From positions 64,001 to 128,000 of the forward strand of contig OY969474.1 of the NCBI GenBank assembly GCA_963700145.1: 64,000 nt of DNA, in the 5' to 3' direction. This document shows, piece after piece, positions 20,595 to 49,994 of the stretch; position 1 is the first letter of the stretch; the number at the start of each line of letters is the position of its first letter. Origin of the DNA: an uncultured Acidobacteriota bacterium. GTDB lineage: Bacteria; Acidobacteriota; Thermoanaerobaculia; Multivoradales; UBA5704. The translations under genes were made by a program, and so were the position numbers. The notes under the pieces were generated by a model, which saw only the letters and a program-made list of their open reading frames with translations, did no database searches and had not been told where the DNA came from.

Positions 20595-20656
20595 GGGCCC
20601 ATCTTCCCATATTTATGGTCCCGCCGACCGTCCCAAGCCCGTGCGGGCGATTCCGC

Positions 20657-20732
20657 GGTGCCGCTCGTTCTTGACCTCGACGCCGTCCACCTCTTCGACG
20701 CCGCGAGCGAGCAGCGGCTCGCTGCCTGAGGT
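20657..20732 (+). repeat. Direct repeat copy 2 (duplicated 3' end of the ABC ATPase gene)
   Basis: Encodes [23 protein letters not shown] versus [23 protein letters not shown]. Confidence 0.9.
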
Positions 20733-21016
20733 CTCGTGAAGAGGAAACCGATGGGCGTTTTCGACGCCCGGGCGGGGAGGTCGGTCGTACTGCCGGGAGT
20801 GGTGCCGTCAGAGCAGAAGTAATCCGATCGCGGGAGAGGAGTTCGCCACGGTCGGCCGCGTCTTTCGCGCCAGGCGACCTATGTTACGGAGCGCCGGCGG
20901 GCCTTCGGGAGCCTCTGCCCGAAGATCTCCCGCGCCCGGAGCTTCATCTCGACGTTCCGGAGATGTATCTCCTATAGACGGAGATCTATCTTCGGGGTCC
21001 GACAACGGGTCTTCCA

Positions 21017-22381: not shown

Positions 22382-22558
22382 GTCTTCCATGCATTGGAGA
22401 TCTATCTCCGACGCCCCGGGATGAATCTCCCATGCATGGAGATCTATCGCCCGCTCTCCGAGATCTTCCCGGAGAACTCGGAGATGATCTCCAGGACCCA
22501 GCCAAGGTCGATCCTCCGGCCGCCCGTAAAGGGCTTGCTGCCCGTGAGTTGGCTGGCT

Positions 22559-22887
22559 TCAAGCCGCGCTGCCAGGCCCGTGCGCCGGGATCTTCTCCAG
22601 CTCGCCAGCCAGGCGTTGCTCGGCATGCCAGAGGTCGTAAGCCAGCTGCATGCGCAGCCAGAATCCCGGGCATTCCCGCAGAACCTGCCCAGGCGCACCG
22701 CCATCTCGGGGCTGACGGAGGATCTTCCGGAGAGGATGCGGTGCAGAGTCTGGCGCGTCACCCGAAGCTGCAGCGCGGCCTCGGTCACGGTGAGCCCCAA
22801 GGCGGGCAGCACGTCCTCACGCAGGATCTCTCCCGGATGAGTGAGCGGCCTCTTGGGCCGCGCCGGCGTTGTCGTGTTCGCAGACAT
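22559..22887 (-). pseudogene. higA: HigA-family antitoxin (XRE HTH), frameshifted near 22670
   Basis: THPGEILREDVL..LTVTEAA..VTRQTLHRIL..VSPEMAVRLG; the conserved FWLRMQLAYDLW continues in another frame. Confidence 0.85.
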
Positions 22888-22898
22888 CCTCCACCTCA

Positions 22899-22958
22899 CT
22901 AGTGATCCTGCTCCAAGTCGACCCGAATCGCCTCGCCCTCCTCCCACTCGAAGGTGAC
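22899..22958 (-). pseudogene. higB: C-terminal remnant of a HigB toxin
   Basis: VTFEWEEGEAIRVDLEQDH* directly upstream of higA resembles the HigB C-terminus (ITFxWxxG..VDLxDYH); no start codon. Confidence 0.65.
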
Positions 22959-23042
22959 GCACAGCTCGCGCAGCACGTCCACCAGGCGGTGGGCCTGATT
23001 GTCGATGACGTAGGGGAGGGGAGTCGCACTCGCGGGATGAAA

Positions 23043-23378
23043 TCAGCGGTCGAGGAGGCGCCGCACCGCAGCCTCGAGCGGCGGCAGCTTGTTCTGGATC
23101 ACGTCCCAGACGATCTCGAGGTCGACGCCGAAGTACTGGTGGGCGAGGATGTCGCGCAGCCCGGCGACCTTGGACCAGGGAACCTCGAGCGCTTGCTGCC
23201 GCACCTCCTCGGGCACTTGTTTGGCGGCCTCTCCTATAATCTCCAAGTTCCGCACTACCGCGTCGACGGCCATGTCATCTCTGCGGAAGCCTTCGAGCGG
23301 GCGCATGCCTACATAACGATGGATTCTGTCGGCCGCCGCTAGGATGTCCTCGAGATAGACCCTAGCGGAACGTGGCAT
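23043..23378 (-). CDS. hepT: HepT-like (DUF86) HEPN ribonuclease toxin
   Basis: [31 protein letters not shown] (Rx4H), IVWDVI. Confidence 0.92.
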
Positions 23379-23664
23379 AAACCGTTTCCCTCAGGATTTC
23401 TTCGCGGAGGGCTTCCTTGAGGGCCTCCTTGAGCACGAGGTCCACTCTCCGCCCGAACAGCTTCTCTAAGTAGCCCTTGAGATCCAAGTAGGCATCGAGG
23501 CTTTTCTGCCCTGGGAAAAATTCAACCAACACATCCACGTCACTGAGCGCTCGGCCACCACCTCGGGCCTGGGAGCCAAAGACGCCGATCTTCTGCACTC
23601 CGAAGGATTGAAGTGCACCTTGGTGTTCTTCGAGGGAGCGGACGACGTCAATGGGCTTAGTCAT
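23362..23664 (-). CDS. mntA: MNT minimal nucleotidyltransferase antitoxin
   Basis: [25 protein letters not shown]; overlaps hepT. Confidence 0.92.
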
Positions 23665-23803
23665 CGGTTGCCTCGTAGCTACTGGGGTCTTGCGAGTTCA
23701 TTAGGCGACTTGGCAGCCTTAGGCTCCGGAGGTTCAGTCCCTTCTGGCGGCATTCCTCAATTCTAGGCTGAGCCATGCGATGATAGAAGGCAGGTTCCCG
23801 CCG

Positions 23804-25363
23804 ATGTCTGCCGCGGCTCTGCTTCGTGTCCTCCTCGTCAAGCCGAGCAAGTACGGCGAGGACGGGTTCGTCGAGCGCTTCCGGCGCGGGTTCCTGCCCA
23901 ACAGCACGCTCGCCTACTTGCGCAGCCTCACGCCGGCCGCCGTGGACGGGTCGCCGGTCGAGGTGACGACGGTCGACGAGTACGTCCGCACCGACCTCGG
24001 CTACCTCGATCTCCTGGCACCCGCACCCGGCCGGCGCACGCTCCTGGCACTGGTCGGCGTGCAGAGCCACCAGCTTCACCGCGCGCTCGACCTCGCGGCG
24101 CTGGCGCGGTCGCGCGGGGTCGAGCAGTGCGTCGTCGGCGGGCCGCACCCGATGACTTGCGACACGACCGACCTCCAGGGGCGCGGGGTGAGCTTCGCGC
24201 TGGCGGAGGCGGAGATCATCTGGCCGCAGATCCTGCGGGACGCGGCGGCGGGGGAGCTGCGGCCGCTCTACGGCGAGGACGGGCGCTGGCTGGAGCGGCT
24301 GGACCCGCCGCCGCTCATCCCGCCGACGCGGCGGGAGCTGCGGCGCTACGCGGTGCCGCTCCTCGGCGTCTACCCGGCGCGCGGCTGCCCCTACACCTGC
24401 AACTTCTGCTCGGTGATCAAGATCGCCGGCCGGCAGGTGCGCGGCCAGCCGGTGGCGACGACGATCGCCAGCCTCGAGGCCGCGCGGGCGGCCGGCGTGC
24501 GCTACGTCCTCTTCGCCTCCGACAACTTCAACAAGTACCCGGAGGTGCGGCAGCTGCTGGAGGGCATGATCGAGGCCGGCATCCGCCTGCCGTTCTTCGC
24601 CCAGTGCGACGCGCAGGTGCACCGCCAGGAGGAGCTCTTCGAGCTGCTGGCGCGCGCCGGGTGCTTTCACATGTTCGTCGGCGCCGAGTCGTTCAGCCGC
24701 GAGGCGCTGCGCGGCGCCCACAAGCTGCAGAACGACCCCGCCGCCTACGCGCGGATCGTCGAGCTCTGCCGGCGGCACGGCATCGTCAGCCACTTCTCGA
24801 ACATTCTCGGCTTCCCGCCGGACACCGAGGAGGGGATCGCCGAGCACCTGCGCCGGCTGCGGGAACTGGCGCCGGACGTGGCGTCGTTCTACCTCCTGAC
24901 GCCGATCCCCGGCACCGACCAGTACCAGGACTTCCTCGACCAGGGGCTGATCACGGAGGACAACCTCGACCGCTTCGACGCCACCTGCGTGACGTGGCGT
25001 CATCCGCGCCTGGCGCCGCGGCGCCTGCGCGCCCTCCTCTACGAGGCGTACCGGGGCTTCTACCGCGGGCGCACCGTGACGGCGAAGCTCGGGCGGTGGG
25101 CGCTCGGGCGCCGCGACTTCCGCACCGCCGGCGCGCTGCTCTCGGTCGCCGGCTACTCGTTCCAGTCGCGCTGGGCGGCGCGGCGGCGCGAGCACCCGAT
25201 GGCCGGCGGCCTCGGCCGGGTGCGCCGCGACCGCGCCGCCGACTACCTGCCGCTGCGCCGCCGCCTCTTCGGCTTCGACCTGGCGCCGCTGCCGCGGAGC
25301 CTCGCCCTCTCGCGCGCCGACGAGGACTTGAACCGCCGCGCCAAGCTGCCGCTCGCACGCTGA
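23804..25363 (+). CDS. B12-binding-domain radical SAM protein
   Basis: VVGGPHP, ARGCPYTCNFCSV (CxxxCxxC), FASDNF, FVGAES, ILGFPPDT, LLTPIPGT. Confidence 0.88.
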   Translation: MSAAALLRVLLVKPSKYGEDGFVERFRRGFLPNSTLAYLRSLTPAAVDGSPVEVTTVDEYVRTDLGYLDLLAPAPGRRTLLALVGVQSHQLHRALDLAALARSRGVEQCVVGGPHPMTCDTTDLQGRGVSFALAEAEIIWPQILRDAAAGELRPLYGEDGRWLERLDPPPLIPPTRRELRRYAVPLLGVYPARGCPYTCNFCSVIKIAGRQVRGQPVATTIASLEAARAAGVRYVLFASDNFNKYPEVRQLLEGMIEAGIRLPFFAQCDAQVHRQEELFELLARAGCFHMFVGAESFSREALRGAHKLQNDPAAYARIVELCRRHGIVSHFSNILGFPPDTEEGIAEHLRRLRELAPDVASFYLLTPIPGTDQYQDFLDQGLITEDNLDRFDATCVTWRHPRLAPRRLRALLYEAYRGFYRGRTVTAKLGRWALGRRDFRTAGALLSVAGYSFQSRWAARRREHPMAGGLGRVRRDRAADYLPLRRRLFGFDLAPLPRSLALSRADEDLNRRAKLPLAR

Positions 25364-36812: not shown

Positions 36813-39272
<2,460 letters not shown>

Positions 39273-39324
39273 GGCACGGTCCTCCCGGGTCCTCCAGATC
39301 GTACGCCGGGAGGGGCGCCGAGTT

Positions 39325-42300
39325 TCAGGCGGCGCGGACCTCGAGCGCGGTGCGCACGGCGCGGCCGAGGTCCTTGGTCGAGAAGGGCTTCTGTAGAAAG
39401 GCGGCCTCATGGTCGCCGAGCGAGAGCTCGTCCTGGCGGCCGGACACGAAGAGCACCGGCGTCTCGGGGCGCAGGGCGAGCAGGCGGCTGGCGAGCTCCG
39501 GGCCGCCCATGCCCGGCATGTTGACGTCGGTCACCAGCAGGTCGAGGGGCCCGTCGTGACGCTCGGCCAGCGCCAGCGCCTCGCGGCCGGAGGCCGCTTC
39601 CAGCACCCGGTAGCCGAGGCCGCGCAGCAGCCTCACCGTCACGCCGCGCACGGCGTGCTCGTCCTCGACCACCAGCACGGTCTCGTTGCCGCCCGGGGCG
39701 GCGGTCTCCTCGGCGCCGCCGGCGGCCGCTTCCAGCTCCGCCACCGGCAGGTAGATGCTGAAGCGCGCGCCTTCCCCCGGCGCGCTGTCGACGAAGATGC
39801 GGCCGCCGCTCTGGCTGACGAAGCCGTAGGCGGTGGCGAGCCCGAGGCCGGTCCCCCCGCCCTCCTGGCGGGTGCTGAAGAAGGGCTCGAAGACCCGCGC
39901 CCGGGTCTCGGCGTCCATGCCGATCCCGGTATCGGCGACGGTGACCAGCACCCAGCGTCCCGCCGGCACCTCGGCGTGCGGCGCCGGCCGGCCGGGATGG
40001 ACGTCGATGGCCGCCGTGCGCACCGTCAAGCGCCCGCCCTGCGGCATGGCGTGGCGGGCGTTGACCGCCAGGTTGACCAGCACGTGCTCCATCCGGCCGG
40101 GGTCGATGAGCACCAGCCCGAGCTCCGGATCGAGCTCCGTCACCAGCTCGACGTCGCCGCCGATCAGGCGGCGGAGCATCTTCTCGACCCCCGTGACCAC
40201 CTGGTTGAAGTCCACCACCTCCGGCTCCATCGCCTGCCGCCGCGCGAAGGCGAGGAGCTCGCGGGTCAGCGCCGAGGCGCGCAGGCCGGCTTCCTGAATG
40301 GCGGTCAGGCTGCTGGTGAGAGGCGCGTCGTCTTCGCGCTCCATCAGCAGCAGGTCGGCGTAGCCCAGGATGACCACCAGACAGTTGTTGAAGTCGTGGG
40401 CGACCCCGGCCGAGAGGCGGCCGATGGCCTCCATCTTCTCGGCGTGGAGGAGCTGCTGCTCGAGCCGCTTCTTGTCCGCCTCGTCGCGCTTGCGGCGCGC
40501 GATGTCGCGCACCGCGACGACCGTCGCGTCTTCGCCCTGGAAGTGGAAGCTCGCGGCCTCGACCTCGAGGTCGACGAGCCCGCCGTCGCGGCGGACGCCG
40601 CTGGTCTCGCGGGCGCCGGCGCCGGGCTCCACCGCCGCGTCGGGGAGGAGCTCGGCCAGCCGCCGGCCGATCAGCTCCGCGGCCTCGTAGCCGAGGATCG
40701 AGGGCAGCGCCTGGTTGACCTCCAGGACGACGCCGCCGCGGACGATCGCGATGCCCTCGACGGTGGCGGCGAACAGAGTGCGGAAGCGCTTCTCGCTGCG
40801 CCGGATCTCCTCCTCGGCCGCCTTGCGCTGCTCGATCTCCTGCTGCGAGCGCTCGAAGAGGCGGATGTTGTCGGCCACCGGCGCGAGCTGGTTGGCGACC
40901 GTGGCGAGCAGGTGGACGTCGCTCGCCGGGAAGTAGTCGTCCGGATCGCGGCGGCCGATGAGCCAGACGCCGATCGTCTCGCCCTGGAGCGCCAGCGGCA
41001 CGACCAGCCGCACCCAGGCGAAGCGCCCGGGCAGCGGGCCCGGCAGGAGCGGCAGGCGGGTGCCGCTGTCGGGCAGGAGCGCGTGCAGCTCGGCGGCGGC
41101 GGGCGCCGCGGCGTCGGGCGGCAAGTCGTGCTCGAAGAGCGGCTCGGCGCGCTCCTCAGCAAACAGATAGAGCGCGGAGCAGCGGATCAGCAGCGCCGGG
41201 AGGACCTGGTCGACCACGACCCGCGCCAGGGTCTCGCGGTCGAAGGCGCTCGAGACGCGCGCCGAGACCAGCTCCACCACCTGCTCGGGCAGGTGCCTGA
41301 TGCCGAAAACGTGGCGGTCCACGAACGCCTGGAAGCGGCCGCGCAGGGCGGGCGCCGCGGTCACCATGACGAGCGCGACGATGAGCGCCGCGCCGTAGAG
41401 CCCGCCCTGGTTGCGCGGCTGGCCGAGCTGCAGCAGGACGAGCAGATAAAGCGGCGCCCAGAGGGCGAAGAAGCCGAAGACGCCGAGCAGCCGGTTGGGG
41501 CGGAACTCGAGCGCGGCGAAGGAGTGCTTGTAGATCGAGTAGAGATAGGACAGCGGCAGCAGGGGAACGGCGAGCAGCGAGATCAGGCCCAGCTCGAGCA
41601 GCCCGCCCTCGAGCTCGCCGCGGCGCGACATCAGCGGCAGCGCGAAGAACACCAGGAAGACCGGCGTGAAGCCGACCGCGACGCCGAAGGCCATGATGCG
41701 GTTGGCGATCTTGACCGCCGGCGACGCCGGCAGCACCAGGCGCACGGCGAGCAGGGCCAGCGCCAGCGCCACCCCCAGGGCGAAGGAGCCGACGTAGAGG
41801 AACTGGATGGCGTCCAGCCGGCGCGCGGCGTCGAGCGCCAGCAGGACGATCGAGCCGCCGTAGAGCAGGCCGAGCAGGGGCGCGCGCCCGCGGCCGAGCA
41901 GCGGCGACGGCAGCAGGAGATGGAGGTGGACGGCCAGCGGCAGGAACAGCCAGACCACGACGTGGAAGACCACCGCCGCCCCGCCGGCGTGGCGGGCCGA
42001 GGCCATCCCCGAAGCGAGCAGGACGGCCGTCAGGTAGCTGAACAGGACGAGCACCAGCCAGCGCTCGTCGTGCGGGCGGAGGAAGATGACCAGCGCCGTC
42101 CCCATCAGCCAGAACACCAGCGGCAGCAGGGTGAGCAGGATGGCGTGCGCCAGGGGGCGTCCGATGTTGCGGCGCACCCCCACCTCCACCGTCCGCACCT
42201 CGCCGGCCCGCAGCAGCCGCACCTCGGCCCTGCCATCGCCGGCGAAGGCCGCGAACGGCTCGGCCATGCGGTCCTGGCGATAGCGCTCGAAGGTCAGTCC

Positions 42301-42519
42301 GCCGATCGACAGCACGCGGTCGCCGACCCGCGGGCAGTCCGCGCCGCGCGGGCAGGGCTCGGCCTGGACGACTTCCCATGTCATGGAGAACGGCGTGAAG
42401 CCGATGTCGGGGAGGAGCGCCGCTTGCGGGTAGTAGACGCAAGACACCAGCGCGAGGAGCGACACGGCGATCCAGACGAGGTCGCCGGCGTGGGGCGCGA
42501 TGGCGCGGCGGCGGTACAT
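39325..42519 (-). CDS. Hybrid sensor histidine kinase: TM-PDZ-multi-TM-GAF-PAS-HisKA-HATPase-REC
   Basis: PDZ-like RVGDRVLSIGG..VRLLRAGE; about 8 further TM helices; GAF; PAS; AHDFNN H-box; NLAVNARHAM; GTGLGL; REC (VVEDE, LLVTDV, LQKPF). Confidence 0.9.
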   Translation of the reverse strand: MYRRRAIAPHAGDLVWIAVSLLALVSCVYYPQAALLPDIGFTPFSMTWEVVQAEPCPRGADCPRVGDRVLSIGGLTFERYRQDRMAEPFAAFAGDGRAEVRLLRAGEVRTVEVGVRRNIGRPLAHAILLTLLPLVFWLMGTALVIFLRPHDERWLVLVLFSYLTAVLLASGMASARHAGGAAVVFHVVVWLFLPLAVHLHLLLPSPLLGRGRAPLLGLLYGGSIVLLALDAARRLDAIQFLYVGSFALGVALALALLAVRLVLPASPAVKIANRIMAFGVAVGFTPVFLVFFALPLMSRRGELEGGLLELGLISLLAVPLLPLSYLYSIYKHSFAALEFRPNRLLGVFGFFALWAPLYLLVLLQLGQPRNQGGLYGAALIVALVMVTAAPALRGRFQAFVDRHVFGIRHLPEQVVELVSARVSSAFDRETLARVVVDQVLPALLIRCSALYLFAEERAEPLFEHDLPPDAAAPAAAELHALLPDSGTRLPLLPGPLPGRFAWVRLVVPLALQGETIGVWLIGRRDPDDYFPASDVHLLATVANQLAPVADNIRLFERSQQEIEQRKAAEEEIRRSEKRFRTLFAATVEGIAIVRGGVVLEVNQALPSILGYEAAELIGRRLAELLPDAAVEPGAGARETSGVRRDGGLVDLEVEAASFHFQGEDATVVAVRDIARRKRDEADKKRLEQQLLHAEKMEAIGRLSAGVAHDFNNCLVVILGYADLLLMEREDDAPLTSSLTAIQEAGLRASALTRELLAFARRQAMEPEVVDFNQVVTGVEKMLRRLIGGDVELVTELDPELGLVLIDPGRMEHVLVNLAVNARHAMPQGGRLTVRTAAIDVHPGRPAPHAEVPAGRWVLVTVADTGIGMDAETRARVFEPFFSTRQEGGGTGLGLATAYGFVSQSGGRIFVDSAPGEGARFSIYLPVAELEAAAGGAEETAAPGGNETVLVVEDEHAVRGVTVRLLRGLGYRVLEAASGREALALAERHDGPLDLLVTDVNMPGMGGPELASRLLALRPETPVLFVSGRQDELSLGDHEAAFLQKPFSTKDLGRAVRTALEVRAA

Positions 42520-42524
42520 CTCCC

Positions 42525-43478
42525 TCAGCCGGCCGCGCCGCTGAGCACGTCGCCGGCGCCGACCGTCGCGAGCAGGCGCGAGAGCGGCTCGCATTGGCGG
42601 GAGAGGAGCCGCTCGAGGGGGCGCGGATCGCGGATGGGCGCCGCGGCGAGCAACCCCTGCGCTTCCTGCGCGAACGCGGTCAAGCGGTAGAGGCAGTAGG
42701 CGACGGCGCCGCAGCGGGCCAGGATCTGCTGCGCCTCGGCGAGCGCCGCCGGCTCGCCGGCCCGCGCCGCCAGGGCGAGGAAGGCCGCCCGCTCCGGATG
42801 CTCGGCGGTCATGGCGTAGAGGATCGCGAGGTTGCCGCGGCCGCGTCTCCAGTCGGCGCTCGCCGGCGTCTCCAGCGCATCATTGAGGTCGTCGCTCACC
42901 TGGACGAAGTGCGCCATGGCAGCGCCCAGGCGCCCCAGGGCTGCGACCGTCGCGGGCGGCGCGCCGCCCAGAAGGGCGCCGATCTCGAGCGCGGCGGCGA
43001 AGAGCGGCGGCGTCTTGGCGTCGACGACCCGCCAGTACGTCGCTTCGTCCGCCGGCTCGCGGGCGTCCAGCTCCTGCCCGCGCGCCGTCGCCAGCGCCAT
43101 GCGCGCCAGGCACGCCTGCAGGCCGGCGCGGGTAGCGCCGCCGGCCGCGGCTTCGTCGAGGAGCAGATGCGCCGCGGCCTGGAAGGCCAGGGCGAGGTTC
43201 GCGGCGCGCCCGGTCCCGAGGCGCCGGTACTCGCCATGCGGATCGTCGTCCAGCAGATCGTCCACCAAGTGGATGCCGGTGAGGGCGCAGAAGACGGCGG
43301 CGGCCCCGGGGAGTGCCGCCTCGGCCTCGCCGCCCACCGCCAGGCACGCGGCCGGCGGGTAGTCCCAGACCGAGCCGCTCTCCTGGTGCACGGCGCGCTC
43401 GGCGTAGGCCAGCGCCTCCGGCCAGCCGGCGATCTCGGGCAGACCGCGCAGGCGGTCGAGGATCTCTGCAATTGCCAT
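42525..43478 (-). CDS. Class I isoprenoid-synthase-fold protein, ComQ-like putative peptide tryptophan prenyltransferase
   Basis: First Asp-rich motif HLVDDLLDDD, GQELD, KT motif, second motif QVSDDLND; lacks the RRG after the first motif typical of chain-elongating polyprenyl synthases. Confidence 0.8.
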   Translation of the reverse strand: MAIAEILDRLRGLPEIAGWPEALAYAERAVHQESGSVWDYPPAACLAVGGEAEAALPGAAAVFCALTGIHLVDDLLDDDPHGEYRRLGTGRAANLALAFQAAAHLLLDEAAAGGATRAGLQACLARMALATARGQELDAREPADEATYWRVVDAKTPPLFAAALEIGALLGGAPPATVAALGRLGAAMAHFVQVSDDLNDALETPASADWRRGRGNLAILYAMTAEHPERAAFLALAARAGEPAALAEAQQILARCGAVAYCLYRLTAFAQEAQGLLAAAPIRDPRPLERLLSRQCEPLSRLLATVGAGDVLSGAAG

Positions 43479-43551
43479 CGGATGGCGATCCGCGTGAGTC
43501 CGTGCCCCGATCAGGCCGGCCGGCAGGAGGCAATGCGCGTCCTTACGGCGG

Positions 43552-43728
43552 TCAGAGCGATGACCCCTCCTCATGCGTCTCGTGGTTGGTGGTGGGCCAC
43601 ACGCCCCATTCCCCGGGCGCGATGACGCTGAGGTCGTCGATCGGGGGCAGCGCGCGCAAGGCCGCGACAAACGCCTCCGGCTCGGGTGAGGTGAAGCGGT
43701 CATGGAAGCTGTCGATCGTGAGGTGCAT
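43552..43728 (-). CDS. 58-aa Trp-containing peptide, putative ComX-like pheromone precursor
   Basis: AGGAGG RBS before ATG 43728; MHLTIDSFHDRFTSPEPEAFVAALRALPPIDDLSVIAPGEWGVWPTTNHETHEEGSSL; first gene of the peptide-prenyltransferase-kinase run. Confidence 0.65.
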   Translation of the reverse strand: MHLTIDSFHDRFTSPEPEAFVAALRALPPIDDLSVIAPGEWGVWPTTNHETHEEGSSL

Positions 43729-43935
43729 GGGCAGGGCCCTCCTAAAAAAGAGGGGGAGGATTCCCCCTCGGTTGCCTGATCCTTCCGACATCGCCTGAGC
43801 GACTGGAGTGGGCGTAGTGTGCCACGGCTTTTCAGCGTCGGGTTGAATGATTCTTAACGGCGACGTGCAGAAATCGGGGCAGGTGCGTGCGCGGCGCGAG
43901 CACGGCGATAGGATCGTTTCCTGCCGGAGAGAGAC

Positions 43936-46794
43936 GTGAATCGCGAAGCGGTGCTGCTCGGGATCGTGCGCGAGCTGGCGGCCGAGCTGCGGCCTGGCGG
44001 GCGGCCGGCGCGGGTCCGCGGCGACGCGGTTCTCGACGCCGCGCTCGAGCGCGACCTGGGCTTCGGCAGCCTGGCGCGGGCCGAGCTGTTCCGGCGTGTG
44101 GAGCGGGCGTTCGGCGCGCGCCTGCCGGACGGGTTGCTGGCCGCCGCGGAGACGCCGCGCGACCTCCTGCACGCCCTCGCCGCCGCGGGCTCGGCGCCGG
44201 ACCCCGCGGCACTGGCCGCCGCGCCGCTCGCCGAGCCGGCGGAGGCCGCGCCCGAGTCCACGCGCACGCTCCCCGAGGTCCTCGCCTGGCACGCCGAGCG
44301 CCACCCCGAGCGCCGGCACGTCCTCTTCGAGCCGGGCGACGGCACCAGCGAGGAGCTGACCTACGGCGGGCTGCGGCGGCGGGCGCGCGGGGCGGCGGCG
44401 GCGCTGCGCGAGCAGGGGCTGGCGCCGGGCGAGACCGTTGCCCTCATGCTCCCCACCGGGCTCGAGTACTTCGCCTGTTTCCTCGGCATCCAGCTCGCCG
44501 GCGGCGTGCCGGTGCCGATCTACCCGCCGGCGCGCCCGAGCCAGCTCGAGGACCACCTGCGGCGGCAGGCCGCCATCCTGCGCACCGCCGGCTGCGTGGC
44601 GCTGGTCGCGGCGCCGGAGGTGATGCCGCTCGCCCGCCTCCTGCGCGCCATGCTGCCGGCATTGCGCGAGGTCGTCACGCCTGCCCGGTTGGCGGCGGCG
44701 GGCGACGCGGCGGCCGCGGCGCCGCTGCCACCGGTCGCCGAGGGCGACGTCGCCTTCCTGCAGTTCACCTCGGGCTCGACCGGCGATCCCAAGGGCGTCG
44801 TCCTGACGCATGCCAACCTGCTCGCCAACCTGCGGGCGATCGGCCAGGGGATCGAGCTGCTGCCCGAGGACGTGGTCGTGAGCTGGCTGCCGCTCTACCA
44901 CGACATGGGGCTGATCGGCACCTGGATGGGGAGCCTCTACTACGGCCTGCCGCTGGTGCTGCTGCCGCCGACCTCGTTCCTGGCGCGGCCGGTGCGCTGG
45001 CTGCAAGCCATCTCGCGCCACCGCGCCACTCTCTCGGCGGCGCCCAACTTCGCCTACGAGCTGTGCGTGCGCAAGGTCGACGACGGCGAGCTCGCCGGGC
45101 TCGACCTCGCCTGCTGGCGGCTGGCGCTCAACGGCGCCGAGCCGGTGAGCCCGGAGACGCTGCGCCGCTTCGCCGAGCGCTTCGCGCCGCTCGGCTTCCG
45201 CGAGACGGCGATGAAGGCGGTCTACGGCCTCGCCGAGTGCTCGCTCGCGCTCTGCTTCCCGGCCGCCGGCGCGCCGCGGATCGACGCCGTCGCCCGCGCG
45301 CCCTTCGCGCGCGACGGCCGCGCCCTGCCGGCGGCCGCCGGCGACCCGCGCCCGCTGCGCTTCGTCTCCTGCGGCGTGCCGCTTCCCGGCCACGAGGTGC
45401 GCATCGTCGGCGAGGAAGGCCGGGAGCTGCCGGAGCGGCGGGAGGGGCGGCTGGAGTTCCGCGCCCCGTCGGCGACGAGCGGCTACTTCGGCAACCCGGC
45501 GGCCACGGCGCGCCTGCTGCGCGGCGGCGGCTGGCTCGACTCGGGGGACCTCGCCTACGTCGCCGGCGGCGAGGTCTTCGTCACCGGCCGGGTCAAGGAC
45601 GTCATCCTGATCGCCGGGCGCAACCTCTACCCGCAGGAGCTGGAGGAGGCGGTGGGGGAGCTGCCCGGCGCGCGCAAGGGGTGCGTGGCGGCGTTCGGAC
45701 GGCCCGACCCGGCGGCCGGCACGGAGCAGCTCGTCGTGGTCGCCGAGACCGGCGAGAGCGCGGAGCCGGCGCGCGAGCGGCTGCGCGAGGCGATCCGCCG
45801 GACGACGGTGGACCTCCTCGGCACGCCGCCGGACGACGTGGTGCTGGCGCCGCCGGGCACCGTGCCCAAGACCTCCAGCGGCAAGCTCCGCCGCGCGGCG
45901 GCGCGCGAGCTCTACCTGCGCGGTCGGCTCGGCCGGCGGCGCGCGGCGCCGGCGGTGCAGCTCGCGCAGCTCGCCTGGAGCGGTGCCGGGCCGCAGCTCG
46001 CGCGCTGGCGGCGGCGGGCGGGCGAGAGCCTCTACGCCGCCTGGGCCTGGCTCCTCTTCGGCCTCTTCGCGGCGCCGGCGTTCCTCGGCGTCTGTTTGCT
46101 GCCGCGCCTCTCCTGGCGGCGCCGCTTCGCGCGCCGGGCGGGGCGGCTCATGGCCCGCCTCGCCGGCATCCGGCTTGCCGTCCGCGGCCTCGAGCACCTG
46201 GCCGAAGCGCGCCCGCGCATCGTCGTCGCCAACCACCAGAGCACCCTCGACGCCTACGTCCTGACCGCCGCGCTGCCGCCCGACCTCGCCTTCGTCGCCA
46301 AGCGCGAGCTGGCGGGGAACCCCTTCGCGCGCGTCTTCCTGGCGCGGCTGGGGACCTTTCTCGTCGAGCGCTTCGATCCGCAGCAGGGCTCGGCGGACGC
46401 CGGCCGCGCCCTCGCCGCGGTGCGCGCCGGCGAGTCGCTCCTCTTCTTCGCCGAGGGGACCTTCGGCCGCGCCCCGGGGCTGCTGCCGTTTCAGCTCGGC
46501 GCCTTCGTCGCCGCGGCGGAGGCGGGAGTGCCGGTCGTGCCGGTCGTCGTGCGCGGCACGCGGTCGCTCCTGCGCGGCGAGGAGTGGTTCCCGCGCCGCG
46601 GCGCGGCGGAGGTGATCGTGCGGCCGCCGATCGCGCCGGCCGGCGCCGGCTGGGGCGCCGCGCTGGCGCTGCGCGACGCGGTGCGCGCCGAGGTCCTGGC
46701 GGCCTGCGGCGAGCCCGACCTCGCGGCCGGCGCGAAGGCCTTCGCGCCCGAGCCGCCGCCCGGGCGTTTGACCGCCCGCGCGGCCGGCCGCTAG
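43936..46794 (+). CDS. ACP - fatty acyl-AMP ligase - PlsC acyltransferase fusion
   Basis: ACP (DLGFGSLARAEL), FLQFTSGSTGDPKGV, SWLPLYHDMGLIG, YGLAE, PKTSSGKLRR, acyltransferase NHQSTLD and FAEGT. Confidence 0.9.
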   Translation: MNREAVLLGIVRELAAELRPGGRPARVRGDAVLDAALERDLGFGSLARAELFRRVERAFGARLPDGLLAAAETPRDLLHALAAAGSAPDPAALAAAPLAEPAEAAPESTRTLPEVLAWHAERHPERRHVLFEPGDGTSEELTYGGLRRRARGAAAALREQGLAPGETVALMLPTGLEYFACFLGIQLAGGVPVPIYPPARPSQLEDHLRRQAAILRTAGCVALVAAPEVMPLARLLRAMLPALREVVTPARLAAAGDAAAAAPLPPVAEGDVAFLQFTSGSTGDPKGVVLTHANLLANLRAIGQGIELLPEDVVVSWLPLYHDMGLIGTWMGSLYYGLPLVLLPPTSFLARPVRWLQAISRHRATLSAAPNFAYELCVRKVDDGELAGLDLACWRLALNGAEPVSPETLRRFAERFAPLGFRETAMKAVYGLAECSLALCFPAAGAPRIDAVARAPFARDGRALPAAAGDPRPLRFVSCGVPLPGHEVRIVGEEGRELPERREGRLEFRAPSATSGYFGNPAATARLLRGGGWLDSGDLAYVAGGEVFVTGRVKDVILIAGRNLYPQELEEAVGELPGARKGCVAAFGRPDPAAGTEQLVVVAETGESAEPARERLREAIRRTTVDLLGTPPDDVVLAPPGTVPKTSSGKLRRAAARELYLRGRLGRRRAAPAVQLAQLAWSGAGPQLARWRRRAGESLYAAWAWLLFGLFAAPAFLGVCLLPRLSWRRRFARRAGRLMARLAGIRLAVRGLEHLAEARPRIVVANHQSTLDAYVLTAALPPDLAFVAKRELAGNPFARVFLARLGTFLVERFDPQQGSADAGRALAAVRAGESLLFFAEGTFGRAPGLLPFQLGAFVAAAEAGVPVVPVVVRGTRSLLRGEEWFPRRGAAEVIVRPPIAPAGAGWGAALALRDAVRAEVLAACGEPDLAAGAKAFAPEPPPGRLTARAAGR

Positions 46795-46828
46795 GATCGA
46801 TCGAAACGACTCGACAAACCGAGGCCTC

Positions 46829-48832
46829 ATGGCGAAGGACAAGAGCGACGCCGGCGCCGCGCCCCAGCTCACCCGCGGGCTGCTGGAGCAGCTCATGCTC
46901 GGCACCGGCCGGGTGCGGCGCTTCACCCAGGACACCCCCGTCCTGCCCGACGTCTGGCTGGAGTACGCCAAGGGACCGGACGATCCGACGCGGCGCACCG
47001 GCGGGGGAGCCGGCGAGGACCCCTACCCGGCCGTCAAGCTGCTGCTGACGCCGTACCGCGAGAACCTGAGCGGCGACGTGCGGAAGGCCCTGTGGGAGCG
47101 GCTGGGCGAGCAGCGCAAGCGCCCCGAGTGGCGGCGCTTCGGCCACGACCCCAAGAAGCCGCCGCGACTGGTCTACAACCAATCCACGGTGGCGGCGACC
47201 CTCTACTTCGAGGACCTCATCCGGGTCGTCCTGCCGATGACCGACTGGTGGGCGAAGCTGGTCAAGCGCCTGGACTTCGCGCGCCTCCAGCTCGCGCCGG
47301 TGCAGAAGGGCCTCGCGCAGGCGGTCCGCGACCCCGAGCACCCGCCGCTGCTGGAGCAGCGCCGCCTGCCGCCCGACCTGCTGTGGATGGTGCGGGTGGT
47401 GGGCGCCCTGGCGCTCGTCCACCGCGGCGAGCCGCTGCCGGCGAGCTTCGCCCCTGACCGCGGCGGCGTCGCCAATGCCAAGCCCGCCGACTGGGAGAAG
47501 CTGGTGGCGGCGGTCGCCGACCTCATCCACGACCTCGATCCCGCCCCGCCGGACGCGCGCATCTACTCGGTCAGCCTCAACCGCGAGGCCGCGCCGACCG
47601 TCGCCCGCTCCGTGCTGTCGATCAAGGCCGATGCGGCGCGGCTGCTCTTCAACATCTCCTGCCGCAGCCTCGCCTGGGCGGTCATCGACAGCGGCATCGA
47701 CGCCACGCACCCCGCCTTCCGCCAGCGTCAGGAAGGCAAGGACGGCGGGCTCTACAAGACGCCGTTCCCGGTGGAGGACAAGAAGCCCGCCAACCGCACG
47801 CGCGTCCACGCGACCTACGACTTCTCGCAGATCGACCTCCTCCTCGACCCCGACAGCGACGACCAGCCCGAGGCGCTGATGAAGCTGAAGGAGGGGAAGT
47901 CGACGGCGGCGGCGAAGCAGCTCGACGCGCAGCTCGCGGACCTCAACAGCGAGCTCCGCGCCGGCCGCACCATCGACTGGAAGCTCATCGCCGAGCTGCT
48001 GCGCGTGCCGCACGAAAAGGGCAAGTACCGGCCGCCGGTCAACGACCACGGCACGCACGTGGCGGGGATCCTCGCCGGCGACTGGCGGAAGGCCGAGTCG
48101 AACGGCGCGCTGGAAGACGACCTCGTCGGCGTTTGCCCCGACCTCCGTCTCTACGACCTGCGAGTCCTCGACGACGAGGGGCGCGGCGACGAGTTCGCGG
48201 TGATGGCGGCGCTGCAGTTCGTCCGCTACCTCAACTCCACCAACGACTACACCGCCGTTCACGGCGTCAACCTGAGTCTCTCGATCCCGCACGACGTCTC
48301 CAACTACGCCTGCGGCCGCACGCCGGTCTGCGACGAGGCCGAGCGCGTGGTCTCCTCCGGCGTCGTGGTGGTCGCCGCGGCGGGGAACCAGGGCTATCGG
48401 CGCTACTCGACGCCCGAAGGCGTGAGCGTCGACATGTACAACACCATCAGCATCACCGACCCGGCCAACGCCGAGCTGGTGATCACCGTCGGCGCCACCC
48501 ACCGCTACCGGCCGCACACTTACGGGGTCAGCTACTTCTCCAGCCGCGGGCCGACCGGCGACGGGCGCCTGAAGCCCGACCTGGTGGCGCCGGGGGAGAA
48601 GATCACCGGCCCGCTGCCCGGCGAGCTCTTCGGGCTCAAGGACGGGACGAGCATGGCGGCGCCGCACGTCAGCGGCGCGGCGGCCCTGCTCATGGCGCGC
48701 CACAACGAGCTGGTCGGCCGTCCCGCCCGCATCAAGCAGATCCTCTGCGCCACCGCCACCGACCTGGGGCGCGAGCGCTACTTCCAGGGCGCCGGGATGC
48801 TCGACGTCCTGCGCTCGCTGCAATCAGTCTGA
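46829..48832 (+). CDS. Cytoplasmic S8 (subtilisin-like) serine protease
   Basis: Catalytic triad VIDSGID / HGTHVAG / GTSMAAPHV, oxyanion AAAGN; no signal peptide; long unknown N-terminal region. Confidence 0.9.
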   Translation: MAKDKSDAGAAPQLTRGLLEQLMLGTGRVRRFTQDTPVLPDVWLEYAKGPDDPTRRTGGGAGEDPYPAVKLLLTPYRENLSGDVRKALWERLGEQRKRPEWRRFGHDPKKPPRLVYNQSTVAATLYFEDLIRVVLPMTDWWAKLVKRLDFARLQLAPVQKGLAQAVRDPEHPPLLEQRRLPPDLLWMVRVVGALALVHRGEPLPASFAPDRGGVANAKPADWEKLVAAVADLIHDLDPAPPDARIYSVSLNREAAPTVARSVLSIKADAARLLFNISCRSLAWAVIDSGIDATHPAFRQRQEGKDGGLYKTPFPVEDKKPANRTRVHATYDFSQIDLLLDPDSDDQPEALMKLKEGKSTAAAKQLDAQLADLNSELRAGRTIDWKLIAELLRVPHEKGKYRPPVNDHGTHVAGILAGDWRKAESNGALEDDLVGVCPDLRLYDLRVLDDEGRGDEFAVMAALQFVRYLNSTNDYTAVHGVNLSLSIPHDVSNYACGRTPVCDEAERVVSSGVVVVAAAGNQGYRRYSTPEGVSVDMYNTISITDPANAELVITVGATHRYRPHTYGVSYFSSRGPTGDGRLKPDLVAPGEKITGPLPGELFGLKDGTSMAAPHVSGAAALLMARHNELVGRPARIKQILCATATDLGRERYFQGAGMLDVLRSLQSV

Positions 48833-48845
48833 AGGAGGAGCCGCG

Positions 48846-49994
48846 ATGCTGGTCCTCGAAGCGCTGCGCGCCAAGTACGGCGACGCCCTGCTGCTCCACT
48901 CCGGCGACGAAGACGACCCGCAGCTCGTCGTCATCGACGGCGGCCCGCCCGGGGTCTACAACGACGCCCTCAAGCCGCGGCTGGAAGAGCTGCGCGCAGA
49001 GCGCGGGCTGGAGGAGGGGACGCCGCTCGACGTCGCCCTGATGATGGTCAGCCACATCGACGAGGACCACATCGCCGGCATCCTGCAGCTGGTGCGGCAG
49101 CTCAAGGACCTGGAGGACTCCGGCGAGCCGCGGCTGTGGAAGGTCCGCCGCTTCTGGCACAACTCCTTCGACGACATCATCGGCAACGACGACGTCGCGG
49201 TCGCCTCCACTGCCTCGGTGGTGAGCACGGCCTCGATCGGCGACCTGCTGCGGCCGGAGGGGTCGCTGGTGCTGGCCAGCGTCGGCCAGGGGCGCGAGCT
49301 GCGCAAGCTGCTCGACGCCTTGAGTCTCGACGGCAACCCGCCGTTCAAAGGGCTGGTGCGGGCCGGCAAGAAGGCGTTCAAGATCGGCGACCTCACGCTC
49401 ACCGTCGTGGCGCCGCTCGAGGAGGAGATCGCCGCCCTGCAGGAGGACTGGGACAAGAAGATCAAGCCGATCCTGAAGAAGGAGAAGGACGCGGCGGCGC
49501 GCGCCGAGGCCGCCGCCTACGTCGACGAGTCGGTCTACAACCTGTCGAGCATCGTCGTGCTGGTCGAGTCGCAGGGCAAGCGGCTGCTCCTGACCGGCGA
49601 CGGCCGCGGCGACCACACGCTGCGCGGCCTCGAGGAAGCGAAGCTCCTCGACAAGAAGGGCCGGATGAAGGTCGACGTCCTCAAGCTCCCGCACCACGGC
49701 AGCGTGCGCAACGTCGAGTCCGACTACTTCGAAGCGATCCGCGCCGACCACTACGTCGTCTCGGCCGACGGCAAGTTCGACAATCCCGACCTCGAGACCC
49801 TGGAGCTGATCTCCGCCGCCCGCCCGGACGACAAGTTCACCATCCACTTGACCTATCCGACCGACGAGTTCAACGTACCGAAAATCGGCAAGGCCGTCGC
49901 GAAGTTCTTCGCCAAGGAGAAGGCCGCCGGGCGCAAGTACAAGGTCAAGACGCGCGCTTCCGGCGACCTCTCCTTCCGTCTCGAGCTCGCCTAG
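48846..49994 (+). CDS. MBL-fold metallo-hydrolase (ComEC/Rec2-like)
   Basis: AKYGDALLL, VIDGG, SHIDEDHIAG, NLSSIV, LLLTGD, KLPHHGS; AAGGAGG RBS, start 13 nt after the S8 stop. Confidence 0.88.
   Translation: MLVLEALRAKYGDALLLHSGDEDDPQLVVIDGGPPGVYNDALKPRLEELRAERGLEEGTPLDVALMMVSHIDEDHIAGILQLVRQLKDLEDSGEPRLWKVRRFWHNSFDDIIGNDDVAVASTASVVSTASIGDLLRPEGSLVLASVGQGRELRKLLDALSLDGNPPFKGLVRAGKKAFKIGDLTLTVVAPLEEEIAALQEDWDKKIKPILKKEKDAAARAEAAAYVDESVYNLSSIVVLVESQGKRLLLTGDGRGDHTLRGLEEAKLLDKKGRMKVDVLKLPHHGSVRNVESDYFEAIRADHYVVSADGKFDNPDLETLELISAARPDDKFTIHLTYPTDEFNVPKIGKAVAKFFAKEKAAGRKYKVKTRASGDLSFRLELA

What the first reader, a model, noticed from the sequence alone, without database searches (positions are those of the whole stretch)
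39325..43728. ComQXP-like prenylated-peptide signalling cassette in a Gram-negative (acidobacterial-type) genome
Seen: three co-oriented genes. First, an unannotated 58-aa ORF with an AGGAGG RBS and two Trp (GEW41-G-V-W44). Second, an isoprenoid-synthase-fold enzyme with DDLLDDD/DDLND motifs but no RRG after the first motif. Third, 5 nt later, a kinase with a TM-PDZ-multi-TM sensor. Known: Bacillus ComQ (same fold) prenylates a Trp in the small ComX precursor, which is sensed by the polytopic kinase ComP; ComX of B. subtilis natto has an internal Trp, and ComQ homologs are known in Chloroflexi. Inferred: this is a Trp-prenylated peptide pheromone system. Unlike Bacillus, the order is X-Q-P, the receptor is a GAF-PAS-HisKA(HDFNN)-REC hybrid rather than HisKA_3, and no comA-type regulator is adjacent, so output probably goes through a phosphorelay.
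Basis: partly seen in the sequence, partly recalled or inferred. Interest (0 to 1): 0.9.

Follow-up and report, generated by a model that had tools for sequence, protein, structure and literature searches.

The report
Tryptophan-peptide, prenyl enzyme and sensor kinase cassette
A soil acidobacterium carries a small tryptophan-bearing peptide gene, a lipid-attaching-type enzyme and a membrane sensor kinase that are inherited and diversify together, which looks like a peptide-pheromone system of the kind so far known mainly from Bacillus.

Summary
The 58-aa ORF (43728..43552, minus strand) is a real, conserved gene. Relatives lie beside orthologs of the enzyme in 22 of 24 loci and 70 of 75 loci. 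They share a leader (MSIxDF...LRRLS) and a W-x-x-W core in 102 of 110 distinct peptides.

The enzyme has a trans-isoprenyl-diphosphate-synthase fold and keeps both Asp-rich motifs. It has lost the GKRxR and RRG residues of chain-elongating synthases. A complex prediction places the peptide leader on the enzyme: 0.87 against a best control of 0.01.

A kinase with a TM, PDZ-like and multi-TM sensor follows the enzyme in 19 of 20 loci and in 56 of 62 acidobacterial loci.

Between two genomes of one genus, the flanks are 94-98% identical. The block of peptide + enzyme + kinase sensor/GAF (40,895-43,903) is only 75-78% identical, with dS raised 4-6 fold. This mosaic resembles the comQXP pherotype pattern.

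It is not a ComQ-family member in the strict sense: the SARM is intact, there is no ComX match, and the kinase type differs. Most relatives add a REC-EAL regulator. No chemistry or expression data exist.

The parts
43552..43728 (-). Precursor peptide gene (58 aa). The conserved leader is about residues 1-33. The core is W41-G-V-W44, followed by a variable 14-aa tail.
   Evidence: There are 34 aligned relatives (A2), with I5, F8, L24, L27, W41 and W44 at 90% conservation or more. It is the only hit in the whole genome.
43738..43743 (-). AGGAGG ribosome-binding site, 9 nt upstream of the peptide ATG
   Evidence: sequence read directly. It is conserved in 3 of the 4 genus members aligned; G002 has AGGA-G.
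43750..43769 (-). Conserved GC-rich stem-loop (GAGGGGG-loop-CCCCCTC) in the 5' leader, just before the RBS. The T-run that follows it in the window is not conserved.
   Evidence: terminator-like scan: 6 overlapping sites against 0.9 expected. (the stem is kept in 4 of 4 genus members, with loop changes).
42525..43478 (-). Trans-IPPS-fold enzyme (317 aa), the putative peptide Trp prenyltransferase. FARM is D73 D74 xx D77 and SARM is D196 D197 xx D200. GKRxRP is replaced by SVWDYP.
41311..42519 (-). Kinase sensor module: TM1 (aa 11-33), PDZ-like periplasmic domain (aa 37-117, with invariant C56 and C62), and a polytopic helical bundle (aa 119-403)
40879..41241 (-). GAF domain of the kinase. It is the last part inside the polymorphic block.
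   Evidence: GAF_3 at 24.3 bits, below the cutoff of 27. (change point at 40,895).
39325..40788 (-). Conserved signalling half of the hybrid kinase: PAS (40501-40788), HisKA with AHDFNN (40234-40422), HATPase_c (39739-40104) and REC (39355-39678)
   Evidence: In one search it is 93.7% identical to the G004 ortholog, against 64.9% for residues 1-573.
40895..43903 (.). Polymorphic 'specificity' block: promoter region + peptide + enzyme + kinase sensor/GAF. It is 75-78% nt identical to a congener whose flanks are about 95% identical.

Best explanation
The locus is a self-contained cassette that makes and senses a peptide signal.

Proposed mechanism:
1. The 58-aa gene encodes a RiPP-type precursor. 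Its N-terminal leader docks onto the C-terminal helices of the adjacent enzyme.
2. The enzyme is a trans-isoprenyl-diphosphate-synthase-fold protein. It still binds and ionises an allylic prenyl diphosphate through its two Asp-rich motifs, but it has lost the IPP-binding residues.
3. The enzyme transfers the prenyl group to a tryptophan of the W-x-x-W core. The likeliest target is the second Trp, W44, the only one kept in single-Trp variants.
4. The lipidated, probably trimmed, peptide is then detected by the periplasmic PDZ-like domain and/or the polytopic membrane bundle of the co-transcribed hybrid histidine kinase.
5. In most relatives the output is an adjacent REC-EAL c-di-GMP phosphodiesterase. 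In the window's genus that partner is missing, so the route beyond the kinase's own REC domain is unknown.
6. Peptide, enzyme and sensor form one specificity unit that is exchanged and diversified as a block, like pherotypes.

Shown here: the conservation, the adjacency, the motif pattern, the predicted leader docking and the mosaic divergence.

Inferred: the prenylation, the acceptor residue, export and processing, and that the kinase's ligand is the peptide.
For: (a) The peptide is a real gene coupled to the enzyme.
- Relatives sit beside enzyme orthologs in 22 of 24 loci and in 70 of 75 loci from named genome records.
- 102 of 110 distinct peptides have W-x-x-W, and the other 8 all contain Trp.
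- Myxococcota precursors carry 3-4 repeated W-x-x-W cores.
- One database protein (P0207) has the peptide and the enzyme in one ORF.
- The genome holds a single copy of each.

(b) Predicted complex of enzyme and peptide.
- The score is 0.87 in each of 3 runs (0.87, 0.87, 0.86), and the best of 3 controls is 0.01.
- The tool's mark was reached by 58 of 80 solved complexes and 2 of 110 mismatched pairs.
- The runs agree in at least 44% of contacts, and the partner pLDDT is at least 59.
- The interface is peptide residues 1-33 with enzyme residues 220-227, 251-268 and 303-311, which include family-conserved positions.

(c) The enzyme is a distinct clade.
- Its own family profile gives 503 bits, against 36-41 bits for the genome's four housekeeping IPPS.
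- In a quick tree, 33 family rows are split from those four by a branch with SH-aLRT 99.
- 240 representative clusters score E<=1e-30 among 1.84 billion proteins.
- FARM, SARM, GQxxD, KT and Q193 are invariant. GGKRxRP is replaced by SVW(D/E)YP, RRG is not conserved, and the GK after SARM is replaced by TP.
- The 2026 review states that all characterised trans-IDS-like peptide prenyltransferases target Trp (PMC13290415, section 2.4 read).

(d) Kinase linkage.
- The sensor plus catalytic halves are adjacent to the enzyme in 19 of 20 loci.
- The sensor is present in 56 of 62 acidobacterial loci. The 6 others end at a contig edge within about 700 nt of the enzyme.

(e) Block-wise diversification, G000 against G004.
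- The flanks are 94-98% nt identical, while 40,895-43,903 is 75-78% identical.
- dS is 0.45-0.61 inside the block and 0.08-0.17 outside. dN is 0.20-0.35 inside and 0.02-0.05 outside.
- Among 14 locus pairs with kinase catalytic halves at least 94% identical, sensor identity is either 91-93% (4 pairs, same W-cores) or 67-77% (10 pairs, at least one W-core differs). These pairs share loci and are not independent.
Against: - No chemistry, no expression data, and no RNA run were found.
- The SARM is an intact DDxxD. The ComQ-family enzymes described in the StheQ preprint have NDxxx with no metal bound there, so the catalytic analogy is not exact and another acceptor or reaction is possible.
- The complex prediction places only the leader with confidence, not the Trp core in the active site.
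- The conserved module has no dedicated exporter or leader protease, and a lipidated peptide in a diderm cell would have to pass the outer membrane to act between cells.
- In 12 of 13 loci from records not titled as ordinary Acidobacteriota, the pair occurs without this kinase. The product may therefore have a function of its own.
- Sensor domains of kinases generally evolve faster than catalytic halves, so part of (e) is generic.
- The sharp mosaic was shown for one genome pair only.
- The window's genus lacks the REC-EAL partner (best match 34% identity, over the EAL domain only).
Confidence: 0.58

Rival explanations
1. The peptide-enzyme pair makes a lipidated RiPP natural product whose primary role is not cell-cell signalling, for example a membrane-active, antimicrobial or surface-associated product. 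The acidobacterial kinase would then be a producer-side regulator or immunity sensor, as with autoinduced lantibiotics, or would sense an unrelated cue.
For: The pair occurs as a two-gene cassette without this kinase in Kordia, Aureisphaera, Ardenticatenaceae/Anaerolineae, Plesiocystis and other Myxococcota, and Entotheonella. The multi-core precursors in Myxococcota resemble natural-product precursors.
Against: In Acidobacteriota the kinase sensor is present in every locus long enough to judge (56 of 56). The sensor also diverges together with the peptide and enzyme inside one recombination block. That is expected for a ligand-receptor pair and not for an unrelated sensor. There are no transporter, immunity or protease genes in the conserved module.
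Confidence: 0.22
2. The small protein is not a substrate. It would be a regulatory or structural small subunit of an IPPS-fold enzyme that makes or cyclises a prenyl lipid, as in heteromeric prenyl diphosphate synthases. The kinase would be merely co-transcribed.
For: Both Asp-rich motifs are intact, as in true synthases. The predicted interface involves only the conserved N-terminal part of the peptide. That heteromeric synthases with small subunits exist is recalled knowledge, not a result of any call.
Against: The basic residues of the GKRxR and RRG motifs are lost. The hypervariable C-terminus with an almost universal W-x-x-W, repeated 3-4 times in some precursors and lying at the very C-terminus in others, fits a leader/core substrate and not a subunit.
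Confidence: 0.08
3. This is an ordinary housekeeping polyprenyl synthase next to an ordinary kinase, and the small ORF is a chance reading frame in GC-rich DNA.
For: Automatic names on homologs are 'geranylgeranyl pyrophosphate synthase' or 'polyprenyl synthetase family protein'. The Atlas neighbours are generic polyprenyl synthetases.
Against: The ORF is conserved across phyla at 20-67% identity, with an invariant motif pattern. The genome has four other canonical IPPS. All NCBIfam equivalogs are far below their cutoffs.
Confidence: 0.02

Closest known systems
Bacillus ComQXPA quorum-sensing system (ComQ prenylates Trp of ComX; ComP senses it)
   Same: A small Trp-bearing precursor sits next to an IPPS-fold enzyme and a polytopic membrane histidine kinase. 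No dedicated exporter or protease is in the cassette. The block of enzyme + peptide + kinase N-terminus is far more divergent between close relatives than the kinase's catalytic half and the flanks. That comQXP shows such polymorphism is recalled knowledge, not taken from any paper read here.
   Different: - The gene order is X-Q-P.
- There is no PF05952 ComX match.
- The leader is conserved across phyla.
- The core has two Trp (W-x-x-W).
- The enzyme keeps SARM DDxxD instead of the pseudo-SARM NDxxx.
- The receptor is a PDZ-like/multi-TM-GAF-PAS-HisKA-REC hybrid.
- The regulator is REC-EAL in relatives and absent here, not ComA.
- The host is a diderm acidobacterium.
StheQ/StheX of Sphaerobacter thermophilus (Chloroflexi), bioRxiv 10.64898/2026.08.29.745113
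   Same: It is an IPPS-fold peptide Trp prenyltransferase outside Firmicutes with an adjacent 69-aa precursor. The enzyme forms a stable complex with the full-length peptide (abstract, introduction, discussion and passages read).
   Different: StheQ has the pseudo-SARM N215-D216-xx-D219 and a single Mg site. StheX has one Trp, second from the C-terminus. No kinase is mentioned in the text searched (0 occurrences of 'histidine kinase').
PalP-PalX-PalQ of Paenibacillus alvei (PMC10853753)
   Same: It is a three-gene cluster of histidine kinase + precursor + isoprenoid-synthase-superfamily Trp prenyltransferase. It was found through an AlphaFold complex of enzyme and precursor (section 2.1 read).
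   Different: PalX has an NHLP leader and a strictly C-terminal Trp. PalQ was filed as terpene-synthase-like and forms its own sequence cluster. The host is Gram-positive.
Ord1 all-alpha-helical indole prenyltransferase (PDB 9V4G/9V4J; PMC12510300)
   Same: It has the IPPS fold and uses an indole instead of IPP as acceptor. It is detectable by sequence from the window's enzyme (E 1.3e-5, 28 bits). The entry was identified as Ord1.
   Different: Per the review, Ord1 farnesylates free tryptophan, not a peptide. Canonical long-chain IPPS score higher than Ord1 against the window's enzyme (E 2e-8).
ChrPC P-domain, a trans-IDS-like peptide prenyltransferase fused to a cyclase (Hubrich et al., Chem 2024, cited in PMC13290415)
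   Same: According to the review, it is a trans-IDS-like enzyme that prenylates an internal Trp of a ribosomal peptide with C10-C20 donors.
   Different: It is a fusion with a terpene cyclase domain. No such fusion was seen among the four unusually long proteins I inspected out of the best 150 family representatives. The primary paper is not held, so overlap with that paper's enzyme cluster cannot be excluded.

Membership tests
ComQXPA quorum-sensing cassette | Small Trp-containing precursor gene adjacent to an IPPS-fold enzyme gene | tested here: met
ComQXPA quorum-sensing cassette | Precursor belongs to the ComX family (Pfam PF05952) | tested here: not met
   0 matches at E<=10 in the whole genome; no Pfam family on the peptide.
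ComQ-family prenyltransferase (IPR033965 sense) | FARM DDxxD conserved | tested here: met
   D73, D74 and D77 are invariant in 35 sequences.
ComQ-family prenyltransferase (IPR033965 sense) | Pseudo-SARM NDxxx in place of DDxxD (feature as stated in the StheQ preprint) | tested here: not met
   D196 D197 xx D200 is invariant in 35 of 35.
ComQ-family prenyltransferase (IPR033965 sense) | Clusters with ComQ rather than with other IPPS in a tree or network | not tested
ComQXPA quorum-sensing cassette | ComP-type receptor and adjacent ComA-type response regulator | tested here: not met
   HisKA (PF00512) hybrid kinase with REC; the adjacent regulator in relatives is REC-EAL (52 of 62 loci). None is adjacent in the window. 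That ComP carries HisKA_3 and ComA is a LuxR/NarL-type regulator is recalled.
ComQXPA quorum-sensing cassette | Enzyme + peptide + receptor N-terminus polymorphic as one block between close relatives | tested here: met
   one genome pair; bimodal sensor identity. That this feature belongs to comQXP is recalled.
ComQXPA quorum-sensing cassette | Trp of the peptide is prenylated and the product activates the kinase | not testable with these tools
   Needs LC-MS/MS and phosphorylation assays.
Trans-IDS-like RiPP peptide prenyltransferases | Trans-IPPS fold | tested here: met
   (pLDDT 92.9). (TM 0.72-0.80 to GGPPS and long-chain IPPS).
Trans-IDS-like RiPP peptide prenyltransferases | Conserved Gln just upstream of SARM (review) | tested here: met
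   Q193 is invariant. Canonical IPPS also carry this Gln, so it does not discriminate.
Trans-IDS-like RiPP peptide prenyltransferases | Binds its cognate precursor peptide | tested here: inconclusive
   prediction only (0.87 against a best control of 0.01). The tool states that this supports binding but does not show it.
Canonical chain-elongating trans-IPPS (FPP/GGPP/long-chain synthases) | GKRxR(P) and RRG basic motifs; scores above NCBIfam equivalog cutoffs | tested here: not met
   (SVWDYP replaces GGKRxRP, and RRG is absent in the family). (best 60.1 bits against a cutoff of 450). That these motifs bind IPP or diphosphate is established knowledge, recalled.
PalPXQ-type cluster | NHLP-type leader and strictly C-terminal Trp | tested here: not met
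   no Pfam family on the peptide; the tail after the last W-x-x-W is 0-26 aa (median 13).

The most novel reading that the evidence does not exclude
Thermoanaerobaculia-type Acidobacteriota, which are diderm soil bacteria, run a peptide-pheromone quorum-sensing system with discrete, recombining pherotypes. In this reading a leader-guided IPPS-fold enzyme prenylates the W-x-x-W core of a ribosomal peptide. A PDZ/7TM-like hybrid kinase reads the lipopeptide, and the signal is converted into c-di-GMP turnover through a REC-EAL regulator. The peptide-enzyme pair would itself define a new, cross-phylum RiPP class found in Acidobacteriota, Myxococcota, Chloroflexota, Bacteroidota and Entotheonella. 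That class would have an intact-SARM prenyltransferase that is mechanistically distinct from ComQ.
Probability: 0.4. Interest if true: 0.88.

Novelty: new variant of a known kind. Interest (0 to 1): 0.78.

Why it matters
Modified-peptide pheromones with histidine-kinase receptors are regarded as a Gram-positive trait, and Trp prenylation by IPPS-fold enzymes has been shown only in Firmicutes and one Chloroflexi organism.

If this reading is true, the cassette would:
- extend prenylated-peptide signalling to a poorly cultured, abundant soil phylum with an outer membrane;
- link it to c-di-GMP control;
- offer an independent case of pherotype-like co-diversification of signal, maturation enzyme and receptor.

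The peptide-enzyme pair alone defines a testable RiPP family of 240 representative clusters at E<=1e-30. Members occur in records titled as named strains (Plesiocystis pacifica SIR-1, Aureisphaera galaxeae NBRC 110018). Its prenyltransferase keeps both metal-binding motifs, which is of interest for peptide lipidation biocatalysis.

Tried and rejected
- Housekeeping synthase reading. Rejected.
- ComX Pfam model. No match in the genome.
- Neighbours as part of the system. The FAAL-ACP-acyltransferase, S8 subtilase, MBL-fold protein and ADOP/MacB-type permease are conserved only within the genus: all four in L021, only the permease in L022, and none in the 18 other loci. I therefore do not count them as parts.
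- REC-EAL ortholog in the window's genome. Not found with that query; the best match is 34% identity over the EAL domain of larger proteins.
- Fold of the kinase membrane bundle. Only generic 7TM-like matches: ACER3 at Z 10.3 and GPCRs at Z 8-9, below the tool's stated noise level for helical bundles. Foldseek found nothing at E<=0.001. My idea of a CAAX-protease-like prenyl-peptide site got no support and is dropped.
- Fused forms as hints to extra chemistry. P0198 is an enzyme-to-kinase-sensor read-through. P0239 and P0251 are tandem double IPPS-like domains. P0207 is peptide + enzyme in one ORF. No cyclase domain was seen.
- Atlas search. It gave only generic polyprenyl synthetase clusters.
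- Rfam on 43400-44000. One chance-level hit (E 0.43).
- Sigma-70 promoter scan. 0 sites.
- Expression. No RNA holder is listed; the runs listed are 20 labelled soil metagenome and one labelled metagenome, all kept as DNA-type contigs.
- Tree against ComQ. Not possible, because no ComQ, StheQ or PalQ sequence was obtainable by allowed means. The careful tree did not finish, so the quick tree is what I cite.
- Literature. Searches found no paper on this family or on peptide pheromones in Acidobacteria. Hubrich et al. 2024 (PMC11484575) is not held. It and the supplements of the papers cited, which are closed, may bear on whether this enzyme clade has been seen before.

Full report
WHAT IS THERE

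The window is 73% G+C and is part of a 5.46-Mb single-contig genome. Homologs of its proteins carry NCBI names of Thermoanaerobaculia, Holophagales or Acidobacteriota MAGs.

Three co-oriented genes lie on the minus strand.
- A 58-aa ORF runs 43728..43552. AGGAGG lies 9 nt upstream, and the protein ends ...APGEWGVWPTTNHETHEEGSSL.
- A 317-aa enzyme runs 43478..42525. It matches Pfam polyprenyl_synt weakly (53 bits) and no NCBIfam equivalog near its cutoff.
- Five nucleotides later a hybrid histidine kinase starts (42519..39325), with GAF (below cutoff), PAS, HisKA, HATPase_c and REC.

THE SMALL ORF IS A REAL, CONSERVED GENE TIED TO THE ENZYME

Strong enzyme orthologs (E below 1e-60) occur in 32 of 37 genomes of the window's family, counting G000. 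They occur in 3 of 24 genomes of other families of the order. An even sample of 401 genomes of the phylum holds them in only 5.

It finds peptide genes in 22 of 24 loci, giving 34 distinct peptides counting the window's. It finds nothing else in the 64-kb window.

In the whole genome, 71,315 ORFs of 30 aa or more give one hit (E 2e-12; the next is 0.58).

The alignment (A2) shows a conserved leader with I5, F8, L24 and L27. A variable linker follows, then W41 and W44 at 90% conservation or more, then a variable tail.

In 75 further loci from named genome records, 70 hold a peptide. Of 110 distinct peptides, 102 have W-x-x-W and the other 8 all contain Trp:
- four Chloroflexota peptides end in W-G-W-x-W-D-W;
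- three have G-I-W;
- one has P-V-W.

Single-Trp variants keep the position of the second Trp.

Other features of the precursors:
- Precursors from Plesiocystis pacifica and two other Myxococcota carry 3-4 W-x-x-W cores.
- Entotheonella peptides end exactly at the second Trp.
- Many Thermoanaerobaculia loci have a second precursor gene between the enzyme and the kinase.
- Some loci have tandem peptide-enzyme pairs.
- One database protein (P0207) has peptide and enzyme in one ORF.

THE ENZYME

The AlphaFold model (pLDDT 92.9) has the trans-IPPS fold, with TM 0.72-0.80 to GGPP and long-chain synthases. By sequence the best solved relatives are long-chain IPPS (E about 2e-8). The indole prenyltransferase Ord1 (9V4G/9V4J) scores E 1.3e-5.

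The family is sharply separate from housekeeping enzymes.
- Its own profile gives 503 bits, against 36-41 bits for the genome's four canonical IPPS.
- A quick tree splits 33 family rows from those four with SH-aLRT 99. The careful search did not finish.
- 240 representative clusters reach E<=1e-30, 2,178 reach 1e-10 and 13,364 reach 1e-3.

Across 35 members, FARM (D73 D74 xx D77), GQxxD, K155-T156, Q193 and SARM (D196 D197 xx D200) are invariant. Aligned with the genome's own IPPS:
- GGKRxRP becomes S-V-W-(D/E)-Y-P, with W38 invariant;
- RRG is not conserved;
- the G-K after SARM becomes T-P.

From established knowledge of trans-IPPS (recalled), the lost basic residues bind diphosphates, notably that of IPP. 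The retained Asp motifs hold the Mg cluster that ionises the allylic donor.

This pattern fits a prenyl donor-activating enzyme with an acceptor other than IPP. It differs from the ComQ family as described in the StheQ preprint, where the second motif is a pseudo-SARM NDxxx that binds no metal.

PEPTIDE-ENZYME CONTACT

The complex prediction with both alignments scored 0.87, 0.87 and 0.86 in three runs, against a best control of 0.01 from 3 controls. The tool's mark was reached by 58 of 80 solved complexes and 2 of 110 mismatched pairs. The runs share at least 44% of contacts, and the partner pLDDT is at least 59.

The confident interface is the peptide leader (residues 1-33) against enzyme residues 220-227, 251-268 and 303-311. 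These overlap conserved enzyme positions (L217, Y221, A222, A225, H227, G257, A258, V259, Y261, C262).

The Trp core is not confidently placed. The tool says this supports binding and does not show it.

THE KINASE

Its sensor half and catalytic half are adjacent to the enzyme in 19 of 20 loci.

In the named records, the sensor is found in 56 of 62 acidobacterial loci. The six others end within about 700 nt after the enzyme. It is found in 1 of 13 other loci, and that one is a 2.5-kb contig labelled Solirubrobacterales.

The model (pLDDT 80) gives three parts:
- TM1;
- a beta domain (residues 37-117) that aligns to PDZ domains (Z 8.1, rmsd 2.5 A, 76 residues; others at Z 7.1-7.5) and has two invariant Cys;
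- about nine TM helices with highly conserved motifs and no informative structural match.

In 16 of 20 sources and 52 of 62 acidobacterial loci, a REC-EAL protein precedes the peptide gene, usually on the same strand. Pfam scores it at EAL 148.8 bits and REC 48.5 bits. The window's genus lacks it, and the genome has no ortholog detectable with that query.

BLOCK-WISE DIVERGENCE

Against a congener (G004), 17 kb of flanks are 94-98% identical at the nucleotide level. Identity falls to 71-81% between about 40,800 and 44,000. Change points lie at 40,895 and 43,903, with identity going from 0.947 to 0.778 and from 0.748 to 0.949.

The block holds the promoter region, the peptide, the enzyme and kinase residues 1 to about 542, that is the sensor plus GAF. 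It ends at the GAF/PAS junction.

Divergence between the two genomes:

| Segment | Protein identity | dS | dN |
|---|---|---|---|
| Four flanking genes | 91.5-97.1% | 0.08-0.17 | 0.02-0.05 |
| Kinase C-terminal half | 93.7% | 0.12 | 0.03 |
| Kinase residues 1-573 | 64.9% | 0.45 | 0.24 |
| Enzyme | 71.3% | 0.61 | 0.21 |
| Peptide (first 36 aa) | 52.8% | 0.48 | 0.35 |

Because dS as well as dN is raised, the block has an older common ancestor than its surroundings. This points to allelic replacement by recombination, not merely faster change.

Among 46 other loci with complete parts, 14 pairs have kinase catalytic halves at least 94% identical. In those pairs sensor identity is either 91-93% (4 pairs, with the same W-cores in both precursors) or 67-77% (10 pairs, with at least one W-core different). 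These pairs share loci and are not independent.

INTERPRETATION

The most economical reading is a leader-guided Trp prenylation of a ribosomal peptide whose product is read by the adjacent kinase. Peptide, enzyme and sensor would co-diversify as a specificity unit. It works like ComQXP.

It fails several membership features of that family: the ComX model, the pseudo-SARM, the receptor type and the regulator type. I therefore file it as a new variant of a known kind.

Outside Acidobacteriota the peptide-enzyme pair stands alone. In Kordia the neighbours are a TPR protein and a GH30 enzyme. In an Ardenticatenaceae MAG they are an ECF sigma factor and an OmpR-type regulator. The signalling role is therefore best seen as an acidobacterial addition to a broader RiPP-like pair.

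LIMITS

- No experiment, no RNA evidence, and no direct comparison with ComQ, StheQ or PalQ sequences.
- Hubrich et al. 2024 and all supplements were unavailable.

Noticed in passing
window 43750-43769 (minus strand) and 43790-43850: A GC-rich stem-loop lies directly before the peptide's RBS. It is kept in all 4 genus members, with changes in the loop, while the following T-run is not conserved. An upstream stretch (GTTAAGAATCATTCAACCCGAC...) is also conserved inside the otherwise divergent block. It could be a regulatory or mRNA-stability element or an operator. There is no Rfam match.
   Followed up: partly
window 43936-49994 (plus strand): Divergent from the cassette is a fatty-acyl-AMP ligase fused to a carrier-protein segment and a PlsC-type acyltransferase (952 aa). 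It is followed by an S8 subtilase (667 aa) and an MBL-fold protein (382 aa). All three are conserved next to the cassette only in G004. Their function and any link to the peptide are unknown.
   Followed up: partly
window 36813-39275 (minus strand): Immediately downstream of the kinase is a MacB_PCD/FtsX duplicated permease of the kind common in Acidobacteria. It is kept in G004 and G002 only.
   Followed up: no
L108, L110 (Plesiocystis pacifica SIR-1), L112; L117, L118, L120, L124; L122: Myxococcota precursors carry 3-4 repeated W-x-x-W cores in one peptide. Chloroflexota precursors end in W-G-W-x-W-D-W. Entotheonella has two tandem precursors that end exactly at the second Trp.
   Followed up: partly
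proteins P0207, P0239, P0251, P0198: P0207 has a precursor-like N-terminus (with W-F-T-W) in frame with the enzyme. P0239 and P0251 are two IPPS-like domains in tandem, the first with degenerate motifs. P0198 reads from the enzyme into a kinase-sensor-like sequence. It is not known whether these are natural fusions or gene-calling or assembly artefacts.
   Followed up: partly
G000:C1 about 10,261-11,322 (minus) and 1,372,987-1,374,046 (plus), outside the window: Two nearly identical canonical IPPS paralogs occur in the same genome, with tree end branches of 0.024 and 0.011.
   Followed up: no
window 20001-24000: G+C dips to 0.64-0.68 against about 0.73 elsewhere in the window. This was not examined.
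   Followed up: no
L049 (G065:C10), genus g54 of another family of the phylum: Small genomes (2.7-3.0 Mb) of a distant acidobacterial genus also carry peptide-enzyme-kinase. Their peptide has a single Trp, second from the C-terminus (...FMVYWF). This positional pattern is the one reported for StheX.
   Followed up: partly
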